A stretch of DNA of 64,000 nt from Phascolarctobacterium sp. (lineage in GTDB: Bacteria; Bacillota; Negativicutes; Acidaminococcales; Acidaminococcaceae), in the NCBI GenBank assembly GCA_030531205.1, contig JAUNOC010000007.1:2073-66072 (forward strand), given 5' to 3'. Positions within the stretch are counted from its first letter, which is position 1, and every line of letters starts with the position of its first letter. A model generated the notes under the pieces. That model did not search any database. It saw only the letters and a program-made list of their open reading frames with translations, and had not been told where the DNA came from. Below are positions 21,070 through 44,198 of the stretch, piece after piece. A program made the translations under genes and the position numbers.

Positions 21070-22155
21070 ATGCTGACTAAAAATGTTGTAGAATTTTTAT
21101 ATTCCACCGCTTCTATGCAACGGTGGAACGACCATATCAGGGTGGACGGCTTCACAGAACTGGACAAGCAGGCACACAAGGCAATGATTCTTTATGTCTT
21201 GGGCAGACACGAAGAAGACGAAGGGACAAAACCTAACTGGCGGGTTTTGGTGGAAGGGCTTATCTTTGAATATATCCACCGTTCTTTTCTGACGGACATC
21301 AAGCCGCCAGTCTTTCACGAATTAGTGAGAGAGTGCAAAAGGGAACTGAATGATTGGGTTTATAAACAAGTTGACGAAAGAGTGCCCGACCTGGACAAGG
21401 GACTGCGAAGCCGTATGGAAGATTGGTTTGACAAAAGCGACAACCCGTTGGAAAAGCAGTTGGTGCGTGCCGCACACTATTTGGCAACCCAGTGGGAATT
21501 TGCGGTCATCTATCGTTTGAACGAGGGCCGTTACGGCATTGAGGAAACTAAAAAAGAAATAGAGTCAGAACTCTTAAACCACAAGAATTTGGCAGGCACA
21601 CGCCAAGTTGTTTTTGGCGGGCCCACCAAAAATTTTATTGATTTAGTCGGTCAACTGCGTTATCAAAAACGCTGGGCACAAAGCGAACGGCTGCCCAGCA
21701 CCAGCGTTTTAGGGCATAGTTTGATTGTCGCCATGTTTGGCTATATGTGCAATTTGCAGCGTGGCCGCAAGGATGCAGAAACATTGGAAGATTTTTGGCG
21801 TGGGCTGTTTCATGACTTGCCGGAAGTTTTGACCAGGGATATTGTCAGCCCGGTCAAGAAGAATGTGGCAGGATTGGATGAAGTAATAAGCAGGGTGGAG
21901 AATAAACTCATTAACGAAAAAATTTTACCGCTTTTGCCGGAACACTGGCGTAAGGATATGCTTCGCATCACGCAAGGATTTGATGCCGCATCGTTGATGA
22001 AAGCGTGTGACAATTTGGCTGCCTATATGGAAGTCAAACTCAGTCAGGAAAGCGGTGTTACCAGCAGGCATATGGAGGAAGCCGCCAAAGCGATGGAAAA
22101 GCAATATAAGGATAAAGTTATAGACGGAATTGACTTTGGGAAACTGTTTGTGTAA
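21070..22155 (+). CDS. HD-domain phosphohydrolase family protein
   Basis: 361 aa. ...LGHSLIVAMF... and ...FHDLPEVLTRDIVSPVK... resemble HD-superfamily metal-binding motifs. Specific function unknown. Confidence 0.6.
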   Translation: MLTKNVVEFLYSTASMQRWNDHIRVDGFTELDKQAHKAMILYVLGRHEEDEGTKPNWRVLVEGLIFEYIHRSFLTDIKPPVFHELVRECKRELNDWVYKQVDERVPDLDKGLRSRMEDWFDKSDNPLEKQLVRAAHYLATQWEFAVIYRLNEGRYGIEETKKEIESELLNHKNLAGTRQVVFGGPTKNFIDLVGQLRYQKRWAQSERLPSTSVLGHSLIVAMFGYMCNLQRGRKDAETLEDFWRGLFHDLPEVLTRDIVSPVKKNVAGLDEVISRVENKLINEKILPLLPEHWRKDMLRITQGFDAASLMKACDNLAAYMEVKLSQESGVTSRHMEEAAKAMEKQYKDKVIDGIDFGKLFV

Positions 22156-22187
22156 TTAGCAATTAGTAATGAGTAATTAGTAATTGT
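22153..22187. repeat. Heptamer tract TAATTAG CAATTAG TAATGAG TAATTAG TAATTGT, starting with the TAA stop of the upstream gene
   Basis: 7-nt periodicity read directly. An inverted counterpart lies at 22659-22680, and the same type recurs at 63983-64000. Confidence 0.7.
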
Positions 22188-22404
22188 GGTAAAATGTTCC
22201 GTTGATTAGATTTTTGGGTTTCAGGTGTGTGGAGTTTTGCAAACCCTCGTCCGCCCATAAAGGGGTAGACAGTCCGGTGGACTGTCGCCGAGAAATTTGG
22301 GCTTGTCCAGCGAGGTAAAAGACCGACACAGGTTTTAAGGTCGGTGGTGGGGTGAGCAATTATGCGGAGGATAATGAAAAGATAAAAAATTAAAGCTTAA
22401 AGTT
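22186..22404 (+). repeat. Partial element copy: TIR-like end plus conserved module Y
   Basis: GTGGTAAAATGTTCCGTTGATTAGA matches the family TIR. 22217-22368 aligns with 40316-40420 and part of 32326-32400. Confidence 0.7.
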
Positions 22405-22658
22405 ATGGTAAGATGTTCCTGAGATTATAGCAGGATAGTTAGTATAGCGCGAACTTAAGGCCCCTTGGTGAAGGGGCTGTCAGCGATAGGAACATAGGTG
22501 GCTGACTGAGGATTGGGAACTTCGCATTATGCGAAAGTATCGCTTTAATCTGCACCCCCAGTCGCCTTTCTATGTTCCTTTAGGCGCCAGCCCCCGCAAA
22601 GGCGGGGGCTACTCATGTTCCTGTAATCTGTAATATAATCATAGGAACATATCACCAT
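22405..22658 (+). mobile_element. Complete 254-bp TIR-bounded non-coding element (MITE-like), copy A2
   Basis: The left end ATGGTAAGATGTTCCTGAGATTATA matches the reverse complement of the right end, ATGGTGATATGTTCCTATGATTATA. Internal GC hairpins. No ORF with an SD. Confidence 0.75.
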
Positions 22659-22708
22659 AATTAGTCATTACTAATTCCCTTAACACCTGAAACCTGACAC
22701 CTGAAAAA
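22659..22708. repeat. Heptamer tracts flanking copy A2 on the right (AATTAGT CATTACT ...; CTGAAAC CTGACAC CTGAAAA)
   Basis: 7-nt periodicity. These are the reverse complements of the TAATTAG-type and AGGTNTC-type heptamers on the left side. Confidence 0.65.
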
Positions 22709-22730
22709 CTGTGCATAGCACAGTTTTTTG
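22704..22730. terminator. Bidirectional rho-independent terminator
   Basis: AAAAA CTGTGC ata GCACAG TTTTTT. Confidence 0.7.
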
Positions 22731-22790
22731 TTTCATAATTTACAGCGAAAAAAACTCTTATGTATACAATGAAAAATAGGGGTTTAAGTA

Positions 22791-22818
22791 TTGCATTTTT
22801 TGATTTTAGGACTATAAT
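22791..22818 (+). promoter_or_regulatory. gdh promoter
   Basis: TTGCAT, 16-nt spacer, TATAAT, about 35 nt upstream of the ATG. An AGGAGG SD follows. Confidence 0.5.
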
Positions 22819-22852
22819 TTATTAAGATAAAAAATCACTTAGGAGGATTATT

Positions 22853-24088
22853 ATGGATTTATTTGAGATGGCCAAAGTTCCTATGGCCGCTGCTGAAAAA
22901 GCAATGAACCTTGACCCCGGTGCTGCAGCAATCATTGCAGAGCCCGAGCGTGTTTTGGAAGTACATATTCCCGTAAGAATGGATGATGGTTCCCTGAAAG
23001 TATTTACCGGTTTCCGTGCCCAACACAGCACAGTGCTTGGCCCGGCAAAGGGCGGTGTACGTTATCACCCCTCAGTTTGTTTGGACGAAGTAAAAACCTT
23101 GAGTTTCTGGATGACCTGTAAATGCGCAGTTGCCGGCTTGCCCTATGGCGGCGGCAAAGGCGGTATTATCTGTGACCCGCAAAAAATGAGTCAAAGAGAA
23201 TTAGAGAGAATGACCCGTGGTTACATTGACCGTATTGCTCCCTGTATCGGCGAGAAATTGGATATTCCTGCCCCTGATATGAACACCAATGGTCAGGTAA
23301 TGGCGTGGATGATGGACGAATACAGCAAGATTAAAAACCAATATGAACCGGGCTTTATCACCGGCAAACCTTTGGGCATGGGCGGCTCTGAAGGCCGCAC
23401 TGCCGCTACCGGTTTGGGTGTAGTGGTTGCAGCAATGGAAGCAATGAAGGTTAAGAAAATTGACCCCAAGAAAGCAACCGTTGCCGTGCAAGGCTATGGT
23501 AATGTAGGCAGTTGGACTGCTAAACACTTTGCCAAGAGAGGTTGCAAAGTGGTGGCACTTTCCGATATCAAGGGCGGCATCTATAACCCTAAAGGATTTG
23601 ATATGAAGAAATTAGATGCTTACTATGAAAAGAAGAGAACATTACACGGCTTCCCCGGCGCTAAAGAAATCACCAATGCAGAACTCCTGGCATTGCCCGT
23701 AACCGTTTTGGCACCCTGTGCAATGGAATTGCAACTGACCAAAGACAATGCGGACAAAGTAAGGGCAAAGATGATTGTGGAAGGCGCTAACGGGCCTACC
23801 ACTCCGGATGCAGACAAGGTATTTGACAAGAAAGGTATTTTTGTAGTGCCTGATATTCTTGCCAACGGCGGCGGTGTAACCGTATCCTATTTTGAATGGG
23901 TGCAGAACCTGTACCGTTATTTCTGGACTGAAAAAGAAGTTGTAGAAAAACAGACCGAAATGATGAAACGGGCATTCAAGAATGTTTATGAAACATCCAA
24001 AAAATATAAAGTTAATATGCGTGTGGCCGCATATTGCGTAGCATTGAATGCAATGGCAATGCCGATGAAAATGCGTGGCATTTATTGA
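22853..24088 (+). CDS. gdh: Glutamate dehydrogenase (Glu/Leu/Phe/Val dehydrogenase family)
   Basis: 411 aa. KGGVRYHP and GLPYGGGKGG motifs, plus the GYGNVG dinucleotide-binding motif. Confidence 0.92.
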   Translation: MDLFEMAKVPMAAAEKAMNLDPGAAAIIAEPERVLEVHIPVRMDDGSLKVFTGFRAQHSTVLGPAKGGVRYHPSVCLDEVKTLSFWMTCKCAVAGLPYGGGKGGIICDPQKMSQRELERMTRGYIDRIAPCIGEKLDIPAPDMNTNGQVMAWMMDEYSKIKNQYEPGFITGKPLGMGGSEGRTAATGLGVVVAAMEAMKVKKIDPKKATVAVQGYGNVGSWTAKHFAKRGCKVVALSDIKGGIYNPKGFDMKKLDAYYEKKRTLHGFPGAKEITNAELLALPVTVLAPCAMELQLTKDNADKVRAKMIVEGANGPTTPDADKVFDKKGIFVVPDILANGGGVTVSYFEWVQNLYRYFWTEKEVVEKQTEMMKRAFKNVYETSKKYKVNMRVAAYCVALNAMAMPMKMRGIY

Positions 24089-25718: not shown

Positions 25719-25818
25719 TGCCCTCTTGGTGAAGAGGGTGGATTGCCCATAGGAACATAGAAGGGCAAGACGGGTGATTGCTCACTGCGAAGTTCTCAAC
25801 CCCTTCACCAAGGGACCT
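25719..25818 (-). repeat. Core-only fragment of the element family (inverted relative to copy A2)
   Basis: CCCTCTTGGTGAAGAGGGTGGATTGCCCATAGGAACATAGAAGGGCAAGACGGGTGATTGC... aligns with 28704-28790 and with the reverse complement of 40525-40583. Confidence 0.7.
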
Positions 25819-28620: not shown

Positions 28621-28935
28621 TTAGTTAAAAGAGATAAGAGATGGTAAGAGGTATCAGGTGTCAGGTTTCAGGTTAGAGGGAAGTTAGCATCAAGCGGACT
28701 TTGCCCTCTTTGTAAAGAGGGTGGATTGCCTAAAGGAACATAGAAAGGCAAGACGGGTGATTGCATACTGCAAAGTTCTCAATCCTCAGTCGGCTACGCC
28801 GCCAGCTCCTTCACCAGGGAGCCAAAAGTTAGCAATATGGTGAACTTAAATAATTTCAATTACAGGAACATATTACCATCATTGTGAATTATGCATTTTG
28901 AATTGTGAATTACAATTGTGAATTATCAATAATAG
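28621..28935 (-). mobile_element. Degenerate element copy D: heptamer tract, inverted core, one TIR, heptamer tract
   Basis: AGGTATC AGGTGTC AGGTTTC AGGTTAG AGGGAAG (28649-28683). The core 28684-28850 aligns with the reverse complement of copy A2. The TIR ...CAGGAACATATTACCAT ends at 28879. ATTGTGA ATTATGC ATTTTGA ATTGTGA... spans 28881-28929. Confidence 0.65.
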
Positions 28936-32282: not shown

Positions 32283-32541
32283 AAGGTAAGATGTTCCTGT
32301 GATTATAGCAGGAAAGTTGGCAGAGTGCGAATTCTCGTCCGCCCATTGAGGGGCGGGGAACCGCCTATGGGAGCGTGTTGGCGGTGGTGGGGTGGCGACT
32401 GCATAGCGAAAGTATCGCTTTAATCGCCACCCTCAGTCAGTTGCTACGCAACTGCCAGCCCCCTCTAAGGGGGCACGAGAGTCAGCATTGTGCTAAATTT
32501 TAATCATTTTAATCATTTTAATCAAAGGAACATATCACCAT
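32283..32541 (+). mobile_element. Complete 259-bp TIR-bounded non-coding element, copy E
   Basis: The left end AAGGTAAGATGTTCCTGTGATTATA matches the reverse complement of the right end, ATGGTGATATGTTCCTTTGATTA. The core shares modules with copies A1, A2, F and G. Confidence 0.75.
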
Positions 32542-40314: not shown

Positions 40315-40447
40315 AGGTTTCAGGTGTGTGGGGGTTATGCGAACCCTTGTCCGCCACTAAAGGGGCGGGGGACCGTCTAAAGGAACATAGAAGGACGGTG
40401 GTGGGGTGAGCAATTACGCTGATGCTAATGAAAAGATAATTAAAGTT
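40315..40447 (+). repeat. Module Y copy plus the AT-rich left extension of the next element
   Basis: GGTTTCAGGTGTGTGG...GGTGGTGGGGTGAGCAATTACGC...TAATGAAAAGATAATTAAAGTT aligns with 22217-22404. Confidence 0.7.
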
Positions 40448-40641
40448 ACGGTAAGATGTTCCGGTGATTAGAACATTGGATATTGATGTGCTGGGTTCAT
40501 TAGTTCAGTTGGAGGGAGCGACCCACCCCGTCTTGCCCTTCTGTGTTCCTGTAGGCAATCCACCCCGCCCACGCCTGGGCGGGAAAATGCAGTTCGCAAT
40601 AAGCGTAGTTTTTTGTTTTTATCAATGGAACATATCACCAT
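40448..40641 (-). mobile_element. Complete 194-bp TIR-bounded non-coding element, copy F (core inverted relative to A2)
   Basis: The left end ACGGTAAGATGTTCCGGTGATTAGA matches the reverse complement of the right end, ATGGTGATATGTTCCATTGATAA. Confidence 0.7.
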
Positions 40642-43971: not shown

Positions 43972-44198
43972 GTGGTAATATGTTCCTGTGATTATATTAG
44001 ATTACCCCTTCATTTTGGGAGGGGAGGGCCGATACTGGAACGTGGACCGGCGGGGTGAGCGATTATGTAGTGACAAAGTTTTCGGAGTAATCTGCACCCC
44101 CAGTCGCAACCAAGTTCCGAAAAGCGACAGCCCCCGCAAGGGCGGGGGCTACTTATGTTCCTGTAACTTGTTATATAATCACCGGAACATTTTACCAT
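43972..44198 (+). mobile_element. Complete 227-bp TIR-bounded non-coding element, copy G
   Basis: The left end GTGGTAATATGTTCCTGTGATTATAT matches the reverse complement of the right end, ATGGTAAAATGTTCCGGTGATTATAT (about 26 nt). Confidence 0.75.

What the first reader, a model, noticed from the sequence alone, without database searches (positions are those of the whole stretch)
22459..22610. Position-homologous GC hairpins inside the elements keep pairing through compensatory changes
In every copy a hairpin follows the conserved block TATGTTCCTTTAGGC(R). Its stem sequence differs between copies but pairing is kept:
- CCCCCGC aaa GGCGGGGG (22591-22608)
- CCCCCGC aag GGCGGGGG (44131-44148)
- CCCCCT cta AGGGGG (32459-32473)
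- CCCTCTT tgta AAGAGGG (28704-28721)
- CCCTCTT ggtg AAGAGGG (25721-25738)
- CCCGCCC acgcct GGGCGGG (40564-40583)

A second hairpin behaves the same way (CCCCTT ggtg AAGGGG at 22461-22476, with inverted versions at 25800-25815 and 28806-28822). In copy A2 a longer pairing joins AGGAACATAG..TGACTG (22488-22507) to CAGTC..TATGTTCCT (22559-22579). Structure conserved while sequence drifts argues that the fold (RNA or single-stranded DNA) is what is selected.
Basis: seen in the sequence. Interest (0 to 1): 0.6.

Follow-up and report, generated by a model that had tools for sequence, protein, structure and literature searches.

The report
Folded DNA ends of nuclease cassettes
The GC hairpins are real and keep their pairing through matched changes. 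They are the folded end-pieces of small mobile cassettes that carry a DUF559 nuclease gene, multiplied more than 100 times in this small gut-bacterium genome mostly as gene-less copies, which points to an enzyme partner for a long-unexplained class of triplex-forming bacterial repeats.

Summary
A covariance model finds 125-129 copies of the same unit in this 1.33-Mb genome, at least 150, 29-37 and 24-31 in three sister species, and none in a fourth sister species or 26 other genomes.

Each unit has three parts:
- a C-rich 5' flank;
- GC hairpin S2.

All six S1 pairs and four of seven S2 pairs covary (0 of 500 shuffles reach the observed score). The flank also mirrors the purine arm of S2 by the rule of a purine-motif intrastrand DNA triplex, as in BoxC/PIT/TMECO.

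The units are the terminal inverted repeats of DUF559 (Vsr-like nuclease) cassettes:
- All 8 DUF559 genes here are flanked by an inverted pair of units.
- The gene and the units occur in the same four genomes.
- Six protein clades each have their own S2 sequence.
- Two 553-bp copies are 99.6% identical exactly between the outer S2 edges.

The window copies are gene-less remnants nested in heptamer-armed inverted-repeat elements. The evidence favours a DNA fold over an RNA fold. Nuclease action and triplex formation are inferred, not shown.

The parts
22373..22406 (+). Left heptamer-repeat arm of carrier element A2 (AATGAAAAGATAAAAAATTAAAGCTTAAAGTTAT).
   Evidence: arms of this type precede the end motif genome-wide.
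22407..22428 (+). Left end motif of the carrier element (GGTAAGATGTTCCTGAGATTAT).
   Evidence: 276 hits with up to 5 mismatches in 1.33 Mb.: found only in this genus.
22460..22477 (-). S2 GC hairpin of the inverted unit (GCCCCTT ggtg AAGGGGC).
   Evidence: R1 hit 22459-22514, minus strand, 55.9 bits; fold.
22479..22506 (-). S1 hairpin of the inverted unit: GTCAGC / GCTGAC closing the 16-nt loop GATAGGAACATAGGTG.
22507..22515 (+). G-rich flank TGAGGATTG, the candidate third strand for the S2 at 22460-22477.
   Evidence: its complement ATCCTCA mirrors the purine arm AAGGGGC.
22516..22552 (.). Central spacer between the two inverted units, at the position that the DUF559 gene occupies in full cassettes.
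   Evidence: the inner distance is 37-56 nt in the shortest gene-less pairs (100-229 nt in others) and 449-467 nt in gene-bearing cassettes.
22553..22560 (+). C-rich flank CACCCCCA of the forward unit, which mirrors the purine arm GCGGGGGC.
22563..22586 (+).
   Evidence: (R1 hit 22553-22608, 69 bits).
22589..22610 (+). S2 GC hairpin of the forward unit: AGCCCCCGC aaag GCGGGGGCT.
22635..22656 (-). Right end motif of the carrier element (TAATCATAGGAACATATCACC on the plus strand).
25721..25777 (-). Unit with S1 TTGCCC and S2 CCCTCTT. Its partner S2 at 25800-25815 is decayed.
28704..28760 (-). Unit with S1 TTGCCT and S2 CCCTCTT. Its partner at 28785-28823 has a short TAC loop (CGGC-tac-GCCG) and a compensated S2 (GCTCC/GGAGC).
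32340..32393 (-). Unit with the alternative S1 loop (ACCGCC-aacacgctcccata-GGCGGT) and S2 CCGCCCC.
32438..32474 (+). Unit variant: S1 AGTTGC-tac-GCAACT and S2 GCCCCCT-cta-AGGGGGC.
40352..40407 (-). Unit with S1 ACCGTC and S2 CCGCC(CC).
40524..40580 (+). Unit with S1 TTGCC and S2 CCCGCCCA.
44095..44148 (+). Unit with S1 GTCGC (loop AACCAAGTTCCGAAAA) and S2 AGCCCCCGC.

Best explanation
The hairpins belong to a roughly 56-nt unit: a C-rich flank, then hairpin S1, then GC hairpin S2. This unit is the terminal inverted repeat of small cassettes whose only gene encodes a DUF559 (PF04480, Vsr-like PD-(D/E)xK) nuclease.

Most units in this genome, including all those in the window, belong to gene-less remnants. 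These are pairs of inverted units with a short spacer, or single units. They sit as payload inside a genus-specific carrier element built from heptamer-repeat arms and ATGTTCC inverted-repeat ends.

Proposed mechanism:
- In single-stranded or extruded DNA each end folds into S1 and S2.
- On the G-rich strand the flank lies back along S2 as the third strand of a purine-motif intrastrand triplex (G.G-C, T/A.A-T, T.C-G). S1 serves as the connecting loop and displays the ATGTTCC/GGAACAT motif.
- The cognate DUF559 nuclease recognises this folded end and cuts at or near the outer edge of S2.
- This lets cassettes, and gene-less pairs in trans, be copied to new sites.

Shown: the architecture, three layers of covariation, the gene-unit association, co-diversification of protein clade with end sequence, exact cassette boundaries, and presence/absence between species.

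Inferred: triplex formation in vivo, nuclease activity and specificity, and the mobilisation chemistry.
For: 1. S1 and S2 covary. All 6 S1 pairs and 4 of 7 S2 pairs have changes on both sides, and 0/500 shuffles reach the observed score.
2. The flank mirrors the S2 purine arm. G goes to C in 337/353 positions, A to A/T in 96/96, and C to A in 56/60. 72 of 76 distinct haplotypes fit. The mean fit is 0.92, against 0.73 +/- 0.013 when arms are swapped between classes. This is the class II purine-motif rule described for BoxC/PIT/TMECO (PMC4666352).
3. All 8 DUF559 genes in the genome (Pfam E = 4.6e-31 and 2.6e-29 for two of them; nearest solved structure 3HRL) have an inverted unit upstream and a forward unit downstream. 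Seven further genes from three sister species have matching end hairpins on both sides.
4. The phyletic patterns match. Units number 125 / at least 150 / 29 / 24 / 0 and DUF559 genes 8 / 11 / 3 / 2 / 0 in the five species of the genus. No unit was found in 26 other genomes, where the only comparable small DUF559 hit is a moderate one in G018 (E 3.6e-14); the rest are weak or lie in large multi-domain proteins.
5. Six DUF559 clades, at most 59% identical to one another, each carry their own S2 sequence. It is the same or nearly the same at both ends of a cassette.
6. Two cassettes 2.4 kb apart are 99.6% identical over 553 bp. The identity starts and ends at the outer S2 edges, and the flanks are unrelated.
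7. Evidence for DNA rather than RNA:
- Stems are about 99% Watson-Crick, with no excess of G.T over A.C mismatches.
- Units function-neutrally occupy both orientations.
- The flank rule (A or T opposite A-T pairs) fits the purine motif, which the cited paper says cannot form in RNA.
- Carrier orientation tends to follow the replication direction where it differs from gene direction: 7 hits against 2, and 25 against 10 in convergent or divergent gaps.
8. An orthologous site is filled in two species and empty in three.
Against: - No biochemical activity is known for DUF559. No cut site or target duplication could be defined.
- The 'second loop' of the proposed triplex is a 26-35-nt hairpin rather than the 3 nt of TMECO. 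Whether a triplex forms is untested.
- Copies within a subfamily are near-identical. The number of independent compensatory events is therefore about 10-15 per helix, not hundreds.
- The alignment used for counting was fitted to the structure.
- The replication-orientation signal rests on few loci (6 against 2), and a G001 sample added one contrary case.
- The units lie in transcribed 3'UTRs and intercistronic gaps, so an RNA role cannot be excluded.
- The nuclease could be a passenger rather than the driver.
Confidence: 0.6

Rival explanations
1. RNA-level elements. The units are co-transcribed with the flanking genes. The GC hairpins act as mRNA stabilisers or processing sites, as REP, ERIC, BOX or Correia elements do. 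Selection on the RNA fold keeps the stems paired.
For: - The elements lie between a stop codon and the next gene or terminator, so they are transcribed.
- The carrier is co-oriented with genes 96:22.
- A neighbouring hairpin, AGTTCGC-N5-GCGGACT plus a T-run, keeps a T.G wobble in 20 of 24 copies. It is always on the sense/leading strand, as a terminator would be.
- Both strands of the whole element fold far better than shuffles, with z = -6.5 and -8.4.
Against: - There is no G.U excess in S1 or S2.
- The conserved loop occurs in both orientations relative to transcription.
- The flank rule fits the purine-motif triplex, which is DNA-only.
- No Rfam family matches.
- Where gene direction and replication direction differ, orientation tends to follow replication.
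Confidence: 0.15
2. No selection on the fold. The perfect stems reflect recent amplification of a few master copies. They may also reflect mutational mechanisms that restore palindromes, such as template switching in quasi-palindromes or gene conversion between copies. The apparent covariation would then be a by-product.
For: - Copies within a subfamily are nearly identical.
- Mismatches are very rare, about 1-2% of pair cells, and G.T intermediates are not favoured. Template-switch correction would give this pattern.
- The interior of an orthologous locus has been reshuffled between two species, which shows frequent exchange between copies.
Against: - Pairing is kept across at least six cassette lineages whose proteins are only 41-59% identical.
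- Pairing is also kept in the relic modules of G004, which have different loops.
- Palindrome repair does not explain why an unpaired flank tracks the purine arm in parallel, not complementary, register.
Confidence: 0.15
3. The hairpins are independent intrinsic terminators, or chance palindromes unrelated by position.
For: They are GC-rich hairpins in intergenic DNA downstream of genes.
Against: - S2 is followed by A-runs or mixed sequence, not T-runs, on the unit strand. On the other strand a T-run precedes it.
- The hairpins occupy the same position in a 56-nt model with E-values down to 1e-14.
- Control motifs give 3-5 hits against 82.
Confidence: 0.02

Closest known systems
BoxC / PIT elements / TMECO intrastrand-triplex repeats (Hoyne et al. 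2000, as cited in Holder et al.; Holder et al. 2015, PMC4666352)
   Same: - The block order is pyrimidine arm, loop, purine arm, then a G-rich third block that mirrors the purine arm (class II purine motif).
- The stems are G/C-rich and the loops less conserved.
- The elements are intergenic and multicopy.
- They are often found as inverted pairs.
- The distribution between close relatives is patchy, and the loci are rearranged.
   Different: - The sequence differs: CCCTCTT, CCCGCCC and CCCCCGC classes here, against CCCTCNCCC.
- The stems are 6-9 nt.
- The second loop is not 3 nt but a whole covarying hairpin (S1) with a conserved 12-16-nt loop.
- The units flank a DUF559 gene, whereas no enzyme partner or mobile-element link was reported for TMECO.
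- Triplex formation has not been tested here.
REP/REPIN-RAYT systems
   Same: - A short structured repeat is amplified to more than 100 intergenic copies.
- A few copies of one nuclease-type gene are each flanked by an inverted pair of the repeat.
- Protein lineages and repeat sequences co-diversify.
- There are gene-less doublets, which are REPIN-like.
   Different: - The enzyme is a Vsr-like PD-(D/E)xK protein (DUF559), not an HUH/Y1 transposase. PF01797 is absent.
- The repeat is a two-hairpin plus flank unit rather than a single hairpin with a GTAG head.
- The units are nested in a second repeat family.
MITEs derived from insertion sequences
   Same: - Non-coding deletion derivatives outnumber the gene-bearing parent.
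- They have terminal inverted repeats.
- They are intergenic.
- Presence and absence differ between species.
   Different: - No DDE, Y1 or TnpB transposase is present.
- No target-site duplication was identified.
- The ends are folded structures whose stems vary while pairing is kept.
Vsr-like (EDxHD) homing endonucleases such as I-Bth0305I
   Same: A small selfish nuclease gene of the Vsr-like fold. The E-x-D-G-x-x-H motif is intact in the proteins here.
   Different: - There is no intron or intein host.
- The cassette has its own structured inverted ends and gene-less derivatives.
- Homing has not been shown.
Heptamer-armed four-helix-bundle (PF05635) cassettes / ORF-bearing 23S rRNA intervening sequences
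   Same: The carrier elements here have inverted heptamer arms. Two of them carry a PF05635 gene in the payload position.
   Different: The hairpin units studied here are not part of that arm system. PF05635 cassettes in the sister species have arms but no ATGTTCC ends and no units.

Membership tests
BoxC/PIT/TMECO-type intrastrand triplex motif (class II) | Three blocks on one strand: a pyrimidine arm, a purine arm that pairs with it, and a third G-rich block that mirrors the purine arm (G.G-C, A/T.A-T). | tested here: met
   72/76 haplotypes fit. G goes to C in 95% of positions and A to A/T in 100%. Swapped-class controls give 0.73 against 0.92.
   The first loop is 3-6 nt. The second 'loop' is the S1 hairpin plus linkers, 26-35 nt.
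BoxC/PIT/TMECO-type intrastrand triplex motif (class II) | Consensus CCCTCNCCC-N3-6-GGGNGAGGG-N3-GGGNGAGGG. | tested here: not met
   The stems here are CCCTCTT, CCCGCCCA, CCGCCCC, AGCCCCCGC, GCCCCTT and CCTTCCCT.
BoxC/PIT/TMECO-type intrastrand triplex motif (class II) | Triplex formation demonstrated physically (CD, NMR, DMS footprint). | not testable with these tools
   This needs oligonucleotide biophysics.
REP/REPIN-RAYT | A RAYT (IS200/IS605-type Y1 transposase) gene flanked by the repeats. | tested here: not met
   PF01797 is absent from a 98.8%-complete genome. The flanked gene is DUF559 instead.
REP/REPIN-RAYT | A short palindromic repeat, mostly intergenic, in tens to hundreds of copies, often as inverted doublets. 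| tested here: met
IS200/IS605 and PATE-type ssDNA elements | TnpA(Y1) and/or TnpB encoded, subterminal hairpins, and no inverted terminal repeats. | tested here: not met
   There is no PF01797 and no PF07282. The ends are inverted repeats.
MITE | Terminal inverted repeats, small size, non-coding, with a related gene-bearing parent element. | tested here: met
   Gene-less pairs of inverted units, against 8 gene-bearing cassettes with the same ends.
MITE | A target-site duplication and a recognised transposase family in the parent. | tested here: inconclusive
   No duplication was recognisable at the two recent copies. The parent gene is a DUF559 nuclease, not a known transposase.
Curated structured RNA family (Rfam 15) | A match at the gathering threshold. 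| tested here: not met
   The best sub-threshold match is RsmY at 20.8 bits against a gathering score of 57. No CsrA gene is present.
DUF559 (PF04480) protein family, for the associated gene | A Pfam match above the cut-off, with the Vsr-like E-x-D-G-x-x-H core present. | tested here: met
   107.4 and 101.7 bits against a cut-off of 20.6. The motifs VDF...EIDGAQH and ADF...ELDGGGH are present. PDB 3HRL matches at E = 3e-14.

The most novel reading that the evidence does not exclude
DUF559 nucleases are the missing enzyme partners of BoxC/PIT-type triplex-forming repeats. Together they would form a REPIN-RAYT-like selfish system built on an unrelated, Vsr-like nuclease. That nuclease would recognise a folded DNA end (GC hairpin, third strand and a display hairpin) rather than a sequence, and would mobilise both its own cassette and more than 100 gene-less copies in trans. 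In this genus the system would home into the many copies of a second, heptamer-armed repeat family.
Probability: 0.35. Interest if true: 0.85.

Novelty: new variant of a known kind. Interest (0 to 1): 0.68.

Why it matters
- Triplex-forming BoxC/PIT/TMECO repeats have been known since the 1990s without an origin, an enzyme or a function. DUF559 is a very large family with a nuclease fold and no known role.
- This genome links the two with several independent lines of evidence: flanking of every gene copy, a shared phyletic pattern, clade-specific ends, and exact duplication boundaries.
- It also yields an explicit three-strand covariation rule across 12 or more sequence classes. Comparative evidence for a non-B DNA structure is rare.
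- The link makes direct tests possible: does a DUF559 protein bind or cut its own folded end, and does the flank form the third strand?
- About 15% of the intergenic gaps of a 1.33-Mb gut commensal are occupied by nested selfish repeats. This matters for assembly, annotation and operon structure in such genomes.

Tried and rejected
- **Known RNA families.** There is no Rfam match at gathering threshold in the window, and none at E <= 1 in the G004 relic loci. Only a sub-threshold RsmY hit was found.
- **CsrA-sponge idea (GGA in loops).** No CsrA gene is present.
- **RAYT or IS200-type transposase.** PF01797 is absent.
- **TnpB.** PF07282 is absent.
- **Reverse transcriptase / retro-mobilisation.** No RVT_1 in G000-G003.
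- **Autonomous transposon between distant end motifs.** Only chance arm matches were found.
- **Intrinsic terminators.** S2 has no downstream T-run.
- **Promoter reading of the 22-nt end motif.** No convincing -35 element, and the inverted copies sit directly upstream of genes. Not pursued further.
- **Long-range loop-loop pairing as the conserved structure.** The S1 stems of partner units are not mutually complementary, and the loop letters are invariant, so covariation cannot support it.
- **G.U-wobble strand test in S1, S2 and the end motifs.** No significant asymmetry.
- **23S rRNA intervening-sequence check.** The assembly holds no 23S rRNA gene.
- **Literature.** No paper in the searchable library links DUF559 with BoxC/PIT/triplex repeats or describes these elements in Phascolarctobacterium.
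Full report
**Setting.** The window is C12:2073-66072 of a 1.33-Mb, 15-contig assembly that is 98.8% complete. Almost all genes lie on the plus strand, and the GC skew is positive throughout.

**The observation.**
- The block TATGTTCCTTTAGGC has 5 matches with up to 2 mismatches in the window, against 0.16 expected. There are about 75 true copies genome-wide.
The block is the 12-16-nt loop of another hairpin, S1. Its 5-7-bp stem has at least ten different, fully complementary sequences: TTGCC, CTTGCC, ACCGTC, ACCGTT, CAATC, CGCCT, CACCT, CTGCCC, GTCAGC and GTCGC.
- S1 is followed after 0-5 nt by the GC hairpin S2, whose stem is CCCTCTT, CCCGCCCA, CCGCCC(C), AGCCCCCGC or GCCCCTT.
- A stem closing a TGTTCC loop followed by a GC hairpin occurs 82 times in the genome. 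Control hexamers of the same composition give 3-5.
- S1 and S2 types combine in several ways.

**Covariation.**
- I built a covariance model (R1) of the unit from 68 distinct copies.
- It finds 125-129 units in this genome, at least 150 in G001, 29-37 in G002 and 24-31 in G003. It finds none in G004, the fifth species of the genus, and none in 26 genomes of other genera, families and classes.
- The counts below are on 150 units (111 distinct) from four species:
  - 83.1% of cells are paired, against 70.7% in shuffles (0/500 reach the observed value).
  - 239 cells carry changes on both sides, against 78 in shuffles (0/500).
  - All six S1 pairs and four of seven S2 pairs have double changes.
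  - Sliding the partners by 1-3 columns drops pairing to 47-62%.
- Caveats: the alignment is fitted to the model; S2 is partly out of register between classes, which lowers its score; and copies within a class are near-identical, so the independent events number about 10-15 per helix.
- Seven window units plus the TAC-loop variant fold as ssDNA into S1 plus S2, with z from -3.1 to -5.5. The fold leaves a 10-13-nt C-rich 5' tail free.

**S1 outlives its loop.**
- S1 also occurs with other loops: CACCGAAAAACTTATC, AACACGCTCCCRTA, CTTAAAAACTGT, TAC and even AA. The stems remain paired in all of these.
- G004 has homologous modules with short loops (GTCAC-gaagt-GTGAC and GTCTTGTAAC-tccg-TTGCAAGAC) and a compensated S2 (GGCTCCTTT/AAGGAGCC).
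- The stems are therefore older than the ATGTTCC loop.

**What the units are.**
- While inspecting units next to ORFs, I found that a 133-aa gene at C12:70546-70944 lies between an inverted unit upstream and a forward unit downstream. Two identical 120-aa genes on C4 have the same layout.
- These proteins are DUF559 (PF04480): 107 and 102 bits against a cut-off of 20.6. The Vsr-like core ...VDF...E-I/L-D-G-x-x-H... is intact. The nearest solved structure is 3HRL, 'endonuclease-like protein'.
- tblastn finds eight DUF559 genes in the genome. All eight have S2-S1-G-rich flank upstream and C-rich flank-S1-S2 downstream.
- Seven further genes from G001, G002 and G003 likewise have matching end hairpins on both sides.
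- The units are therefore the roughly 60-75-nt structured terminal inverted repeats of DUF559 cassettes.
- The inner distance between paired units is 449-467 nt when the gene is present. In the shortest gene-less pairs it is 37-56 nt, and in others it is 100-229 nt.
- The window's type copy (22459-22610) is such a gene-less pair with a 37-nt spacer.

**Association tests.**
1. The phyletic patterns match. DUF559 genes number 8, 11, 3, 2 and 0 in G000-G004, which is the pattern of the units. Among the 26 other genomes the only comparable small DUF559 hit is a moderate one (E 3.6e-14) in G018; the remaining hits are weak or lie in large multi-domain proteins.
2. Proteins and ends co-diversify. 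The 15 proteins fall into six clades at most 59% identical to one another. Each clade has its own S2 sequence, the same or nearly so at both ends: CCCTCTT; CCCGCCCA/CCGCCCCA; AGCCCCCGC; CCGCCC(C); GCCCCTT; CCTTCCCT. Clades shared between species keep their S2.
3. The cassette is a discrete unit. The two C4 cassettes are 99.6% identical over 553 bp. The identity begins at TTTCCGCCCC and ends at GGGCGGGAAAA, which are the outer edges of the two S2 hairpins. The flanks are unrelated.
4. Sites turn over. The orthologous gap after the gene ending at window 22155 holds about 550 nt of elements in G000 and G001. The outer arms are the same but the inner modules differ. The gap is empty (about 110-130 nt) in G002, G003 and G004.

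**A third layer of covariation.**
- Notes of earlier agents on other genomes mentioned that DUF559 cassette ends resemble BoxC/PIT/TMECO triplex repeats. I treated this as a lead and tested it here.
- Holder et al. 2015 define class II intrastrand triplexes as a pyrimidine arm, a purine arm and a 3' reverse-Hoogsteen block, with G.G-C and A/T.A-T triplets. They state that the purine motif cannot form in RNA.
- In the units, the C-rich 5' flank is the parallel complement of the S2 purine arm. On the opposite, G-rich strand the flank is therefore a mirror copy of the purine arm placed 3' of it.
- Examples of purine arm and flank:

| Purine arm | Flank |
|---|---|
| AAGAGGG | ATCACCC / AACACCC |
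| GGGCGGG | CCCACCC |
| GGGGCGG | CCCCACC |
| GCGGGGGC | CACCCCCA |
| AAGGGGC | ATCCCCA |
| TGGGAGGGG | CCCTCCCC |

- Over 219 units (76 distinct haplotypes, four species), 72 fit with at most one deviation. G goes to C in 337/353 positions, A to A or T in 96/96, and C to A in 56/60.
- Swapping purine arms between classes lowers the mean fit from 0.92 to 0.73 +/- 0.013, with a maximum of 0.767 in 1000 trials.
- The letters opposite A-T pairs are A three times out of four on the C-rich strand. That does not suit a pyrimidine-motif (RNA-capable) triplex. It does suit T.A-T in the purine motif on the G-rich strand.
- The unit thus has the logic of a PIT/TMECO motif whose 3-nt second loop is replaced by the S1 hairpin. 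Whether the triplex forms is untested.

**DNA or RNA?**
- For DNA:
  - Stems are about 99% Watson-Crick. True stem mismatches number 5 A.C, 2 G.T and 5 others, so there is no wobble tolerance.
  - Units occur in both orientations relative to transcription: 34 opposite against 25 the same. Each subtype has a fixed orientation within the carrier.
  - The flank follows the purine-motif rule.
  - The carrier's left-end motif tends to follow replication direction, inferred from GC skew, rather than gene direction where the two differ. The counts are 7 hits against 2 (6 loci against 2), and 25 against 10 in convergent or divergent gaps.
- A G001 sample added one contrary case and 6:2. I regard this orientation signal as suggestive only.
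- For RNA:
  - The elements lie in transcribed gaps.
  - A neighbouring hairpin, AGTTCGC-N5-GCGGACT plus a T-run, keeps a T.G wobble in 20/24 copies. It always lies on the sense/leading strand, like a terminator.

**The carrier.**
- The units sit as payload in a second repeat family: an inverted heptamer-repeat arm, then the 22-nt end motif GGTAAGATGTTCCTGTGATTAT, then the payload, then the inverted end motif and arm.
- The end motif has 276 hits with up to 5 mismatches. It occupies about 175 of about 1160 gaps and is found only in this genus.
- Two carriers hold a four-helix-bundle gene (PF05635) as payload. That gene family is in 5/5 genomes of the genus and 3/26 others.
- Four-helix-bundle cassettes of the sister species have arms but no ATGTTCC ends and no units. 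The two systems are therefore separable.
- The S1 loop motif equals the core of the carrier's end motif. TGTTCCTGTG resembles the left end and ATGTTCCTTT the right end. I cannot explain this; it may mean that one protein reads both.
- Cassettes and gene-less pairs are always bracketed by ...GCGAACTTT | cassette | AAAGTTCGC.... This would fit homing into a conserved site of the carrier, but no empty-versus-filled pair resolved the junction.

**Mechanism, with status.**
- Shown: the unit architecture; covariation in S1, S2 and the flank; the units as DUF559 cassette termini; clade-specific ends; exact duplication boundaries; a shared phyletic pattern; and site turnover.
- Inferred: the ends fold in single-stranded or extruded DNA; the flank forms a purine-motif triplex with S2 on the G-rich strand; the cognate DUF559 nuclease recognises the fold and cuts near the outer S2 edge; and gene-less pairs are mobilised in trans.
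- No nuclease activity, cut site or target duplication is known. The nuclease might be a passenger.

**Comparison with what is known.**
- The units work like PIT/TMECO motifs in structure and like REP/REPIN-RAYT or MITE-IS pairs in system logic. They fail defining features of each family: loop length and consensus for TMECO, the Y1 transposase for RAYT and IS200, and a known transposase and target duplication for MITEs.
- I found no paper that links DUF559 to such repeats.
- Earlier agents of this scan have reported DUF559 cassettes with hairpin or triplex-like ends in other phyla, mostly in frame inside genes.
- This genome adds an intergenic, heavily amplified, mostly gene-less population. 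It also adds explicit triplet rules, clade-end co-diversification, and a clean with/without contrast inside one genus.

Noticed in passing
genome-wide; window example 28684-28703: A third hairpin module, AGTTCGC-N5-GCGGACT followed by a T-run, brackets the cassettes. It keeps a T.G wobble in 20 of 24 copies and never has the perfect GTCCGC/GCGGAC form. It always lies on the leading/sense strand and looks like a portable weak terminator.
   Followed up: partly
genome-wide (G000), sample of G001: The carrier's left-end motif lies on the leading strand in about 84% of cases. Where flanking genes are on the lagging strand, it tends to follow replication rather than transcription: 7 hits against 2, and 25 against 10 in convergent or divergent gaps. 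In G001 there is one contrary case and 6:2.
   Followed up: partly
window 22155-22853 and loci L053-L056: The orthologous intergenic site is filled with two tandem elements in G000 and G001. The outer heptamer arms are the same but the inner modules are reshuffled. The site is empty in G002, G003 and G004. The insert begins at the stop codon of the upstream gene and lies before that gene's terminator.
   Followed up: yes
window 22266-22335: A module of about 65-70 nt containing the hairpin GACAGTCCGGTGGACTGTC replaces the S1 region of the first element (A1). The same insert recurs in at least 7 other copies in the genome.
   Followed up: no
G000 C4:51314-51866 and C4:53716-54268: Two DUF559 cassettes 2.4 kb apart are 99.6% identical over 553 bp and have unrelated flanks. 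This points to a very recent duplication or transposition.
   Followed up: yes
loci L062, L063, L065 (G004): G004 has no DUF559 gene and no ATGTTCC-loop unit. It does keep several copies of a string of about 400 nt of GC hairpins homologous to the gene-less pairs, with short loops and compensated stems, for example TGTCGCC-aaa-GGCGACA against TGTCAGTTGC-gga-GCAACTGACA. These may be relics, or a separate structured element.
   Followed up: partly
S1 loops and carrier end motifs, genome-wide: The S1 loop motif is the core of the carrier's end motif. TGTTCCTGTG resembles the left end and ATGTTCCTTT the right end. The reason is unexplained.
   Followed up: no
loci L057-L059 (G001-G003): Four-helix-bundle (PF05635) genes of the sister species are bracketed by inverted heptamer arrays of different sequence: AGGTGTC type, GGAATTA type and TAGTAGC type. 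They lack the ATGTTCC end motif.
   Followed up: no
window 22588-22692, minus strand: A sub-threshold Rfam match to RsmY (20.8 bits, gathering score 57, E = 0.0075 for this small search). The genome has no CsrA, so this is probably chance.
   Followed up: yes
G000 C12:70546-70944 (about 2.4 kb beyond the window's right end): This is the nearest intact DUF559 cassette to the window. It is nested in a carrier element directly after a stop codon.
   Followed up: yes
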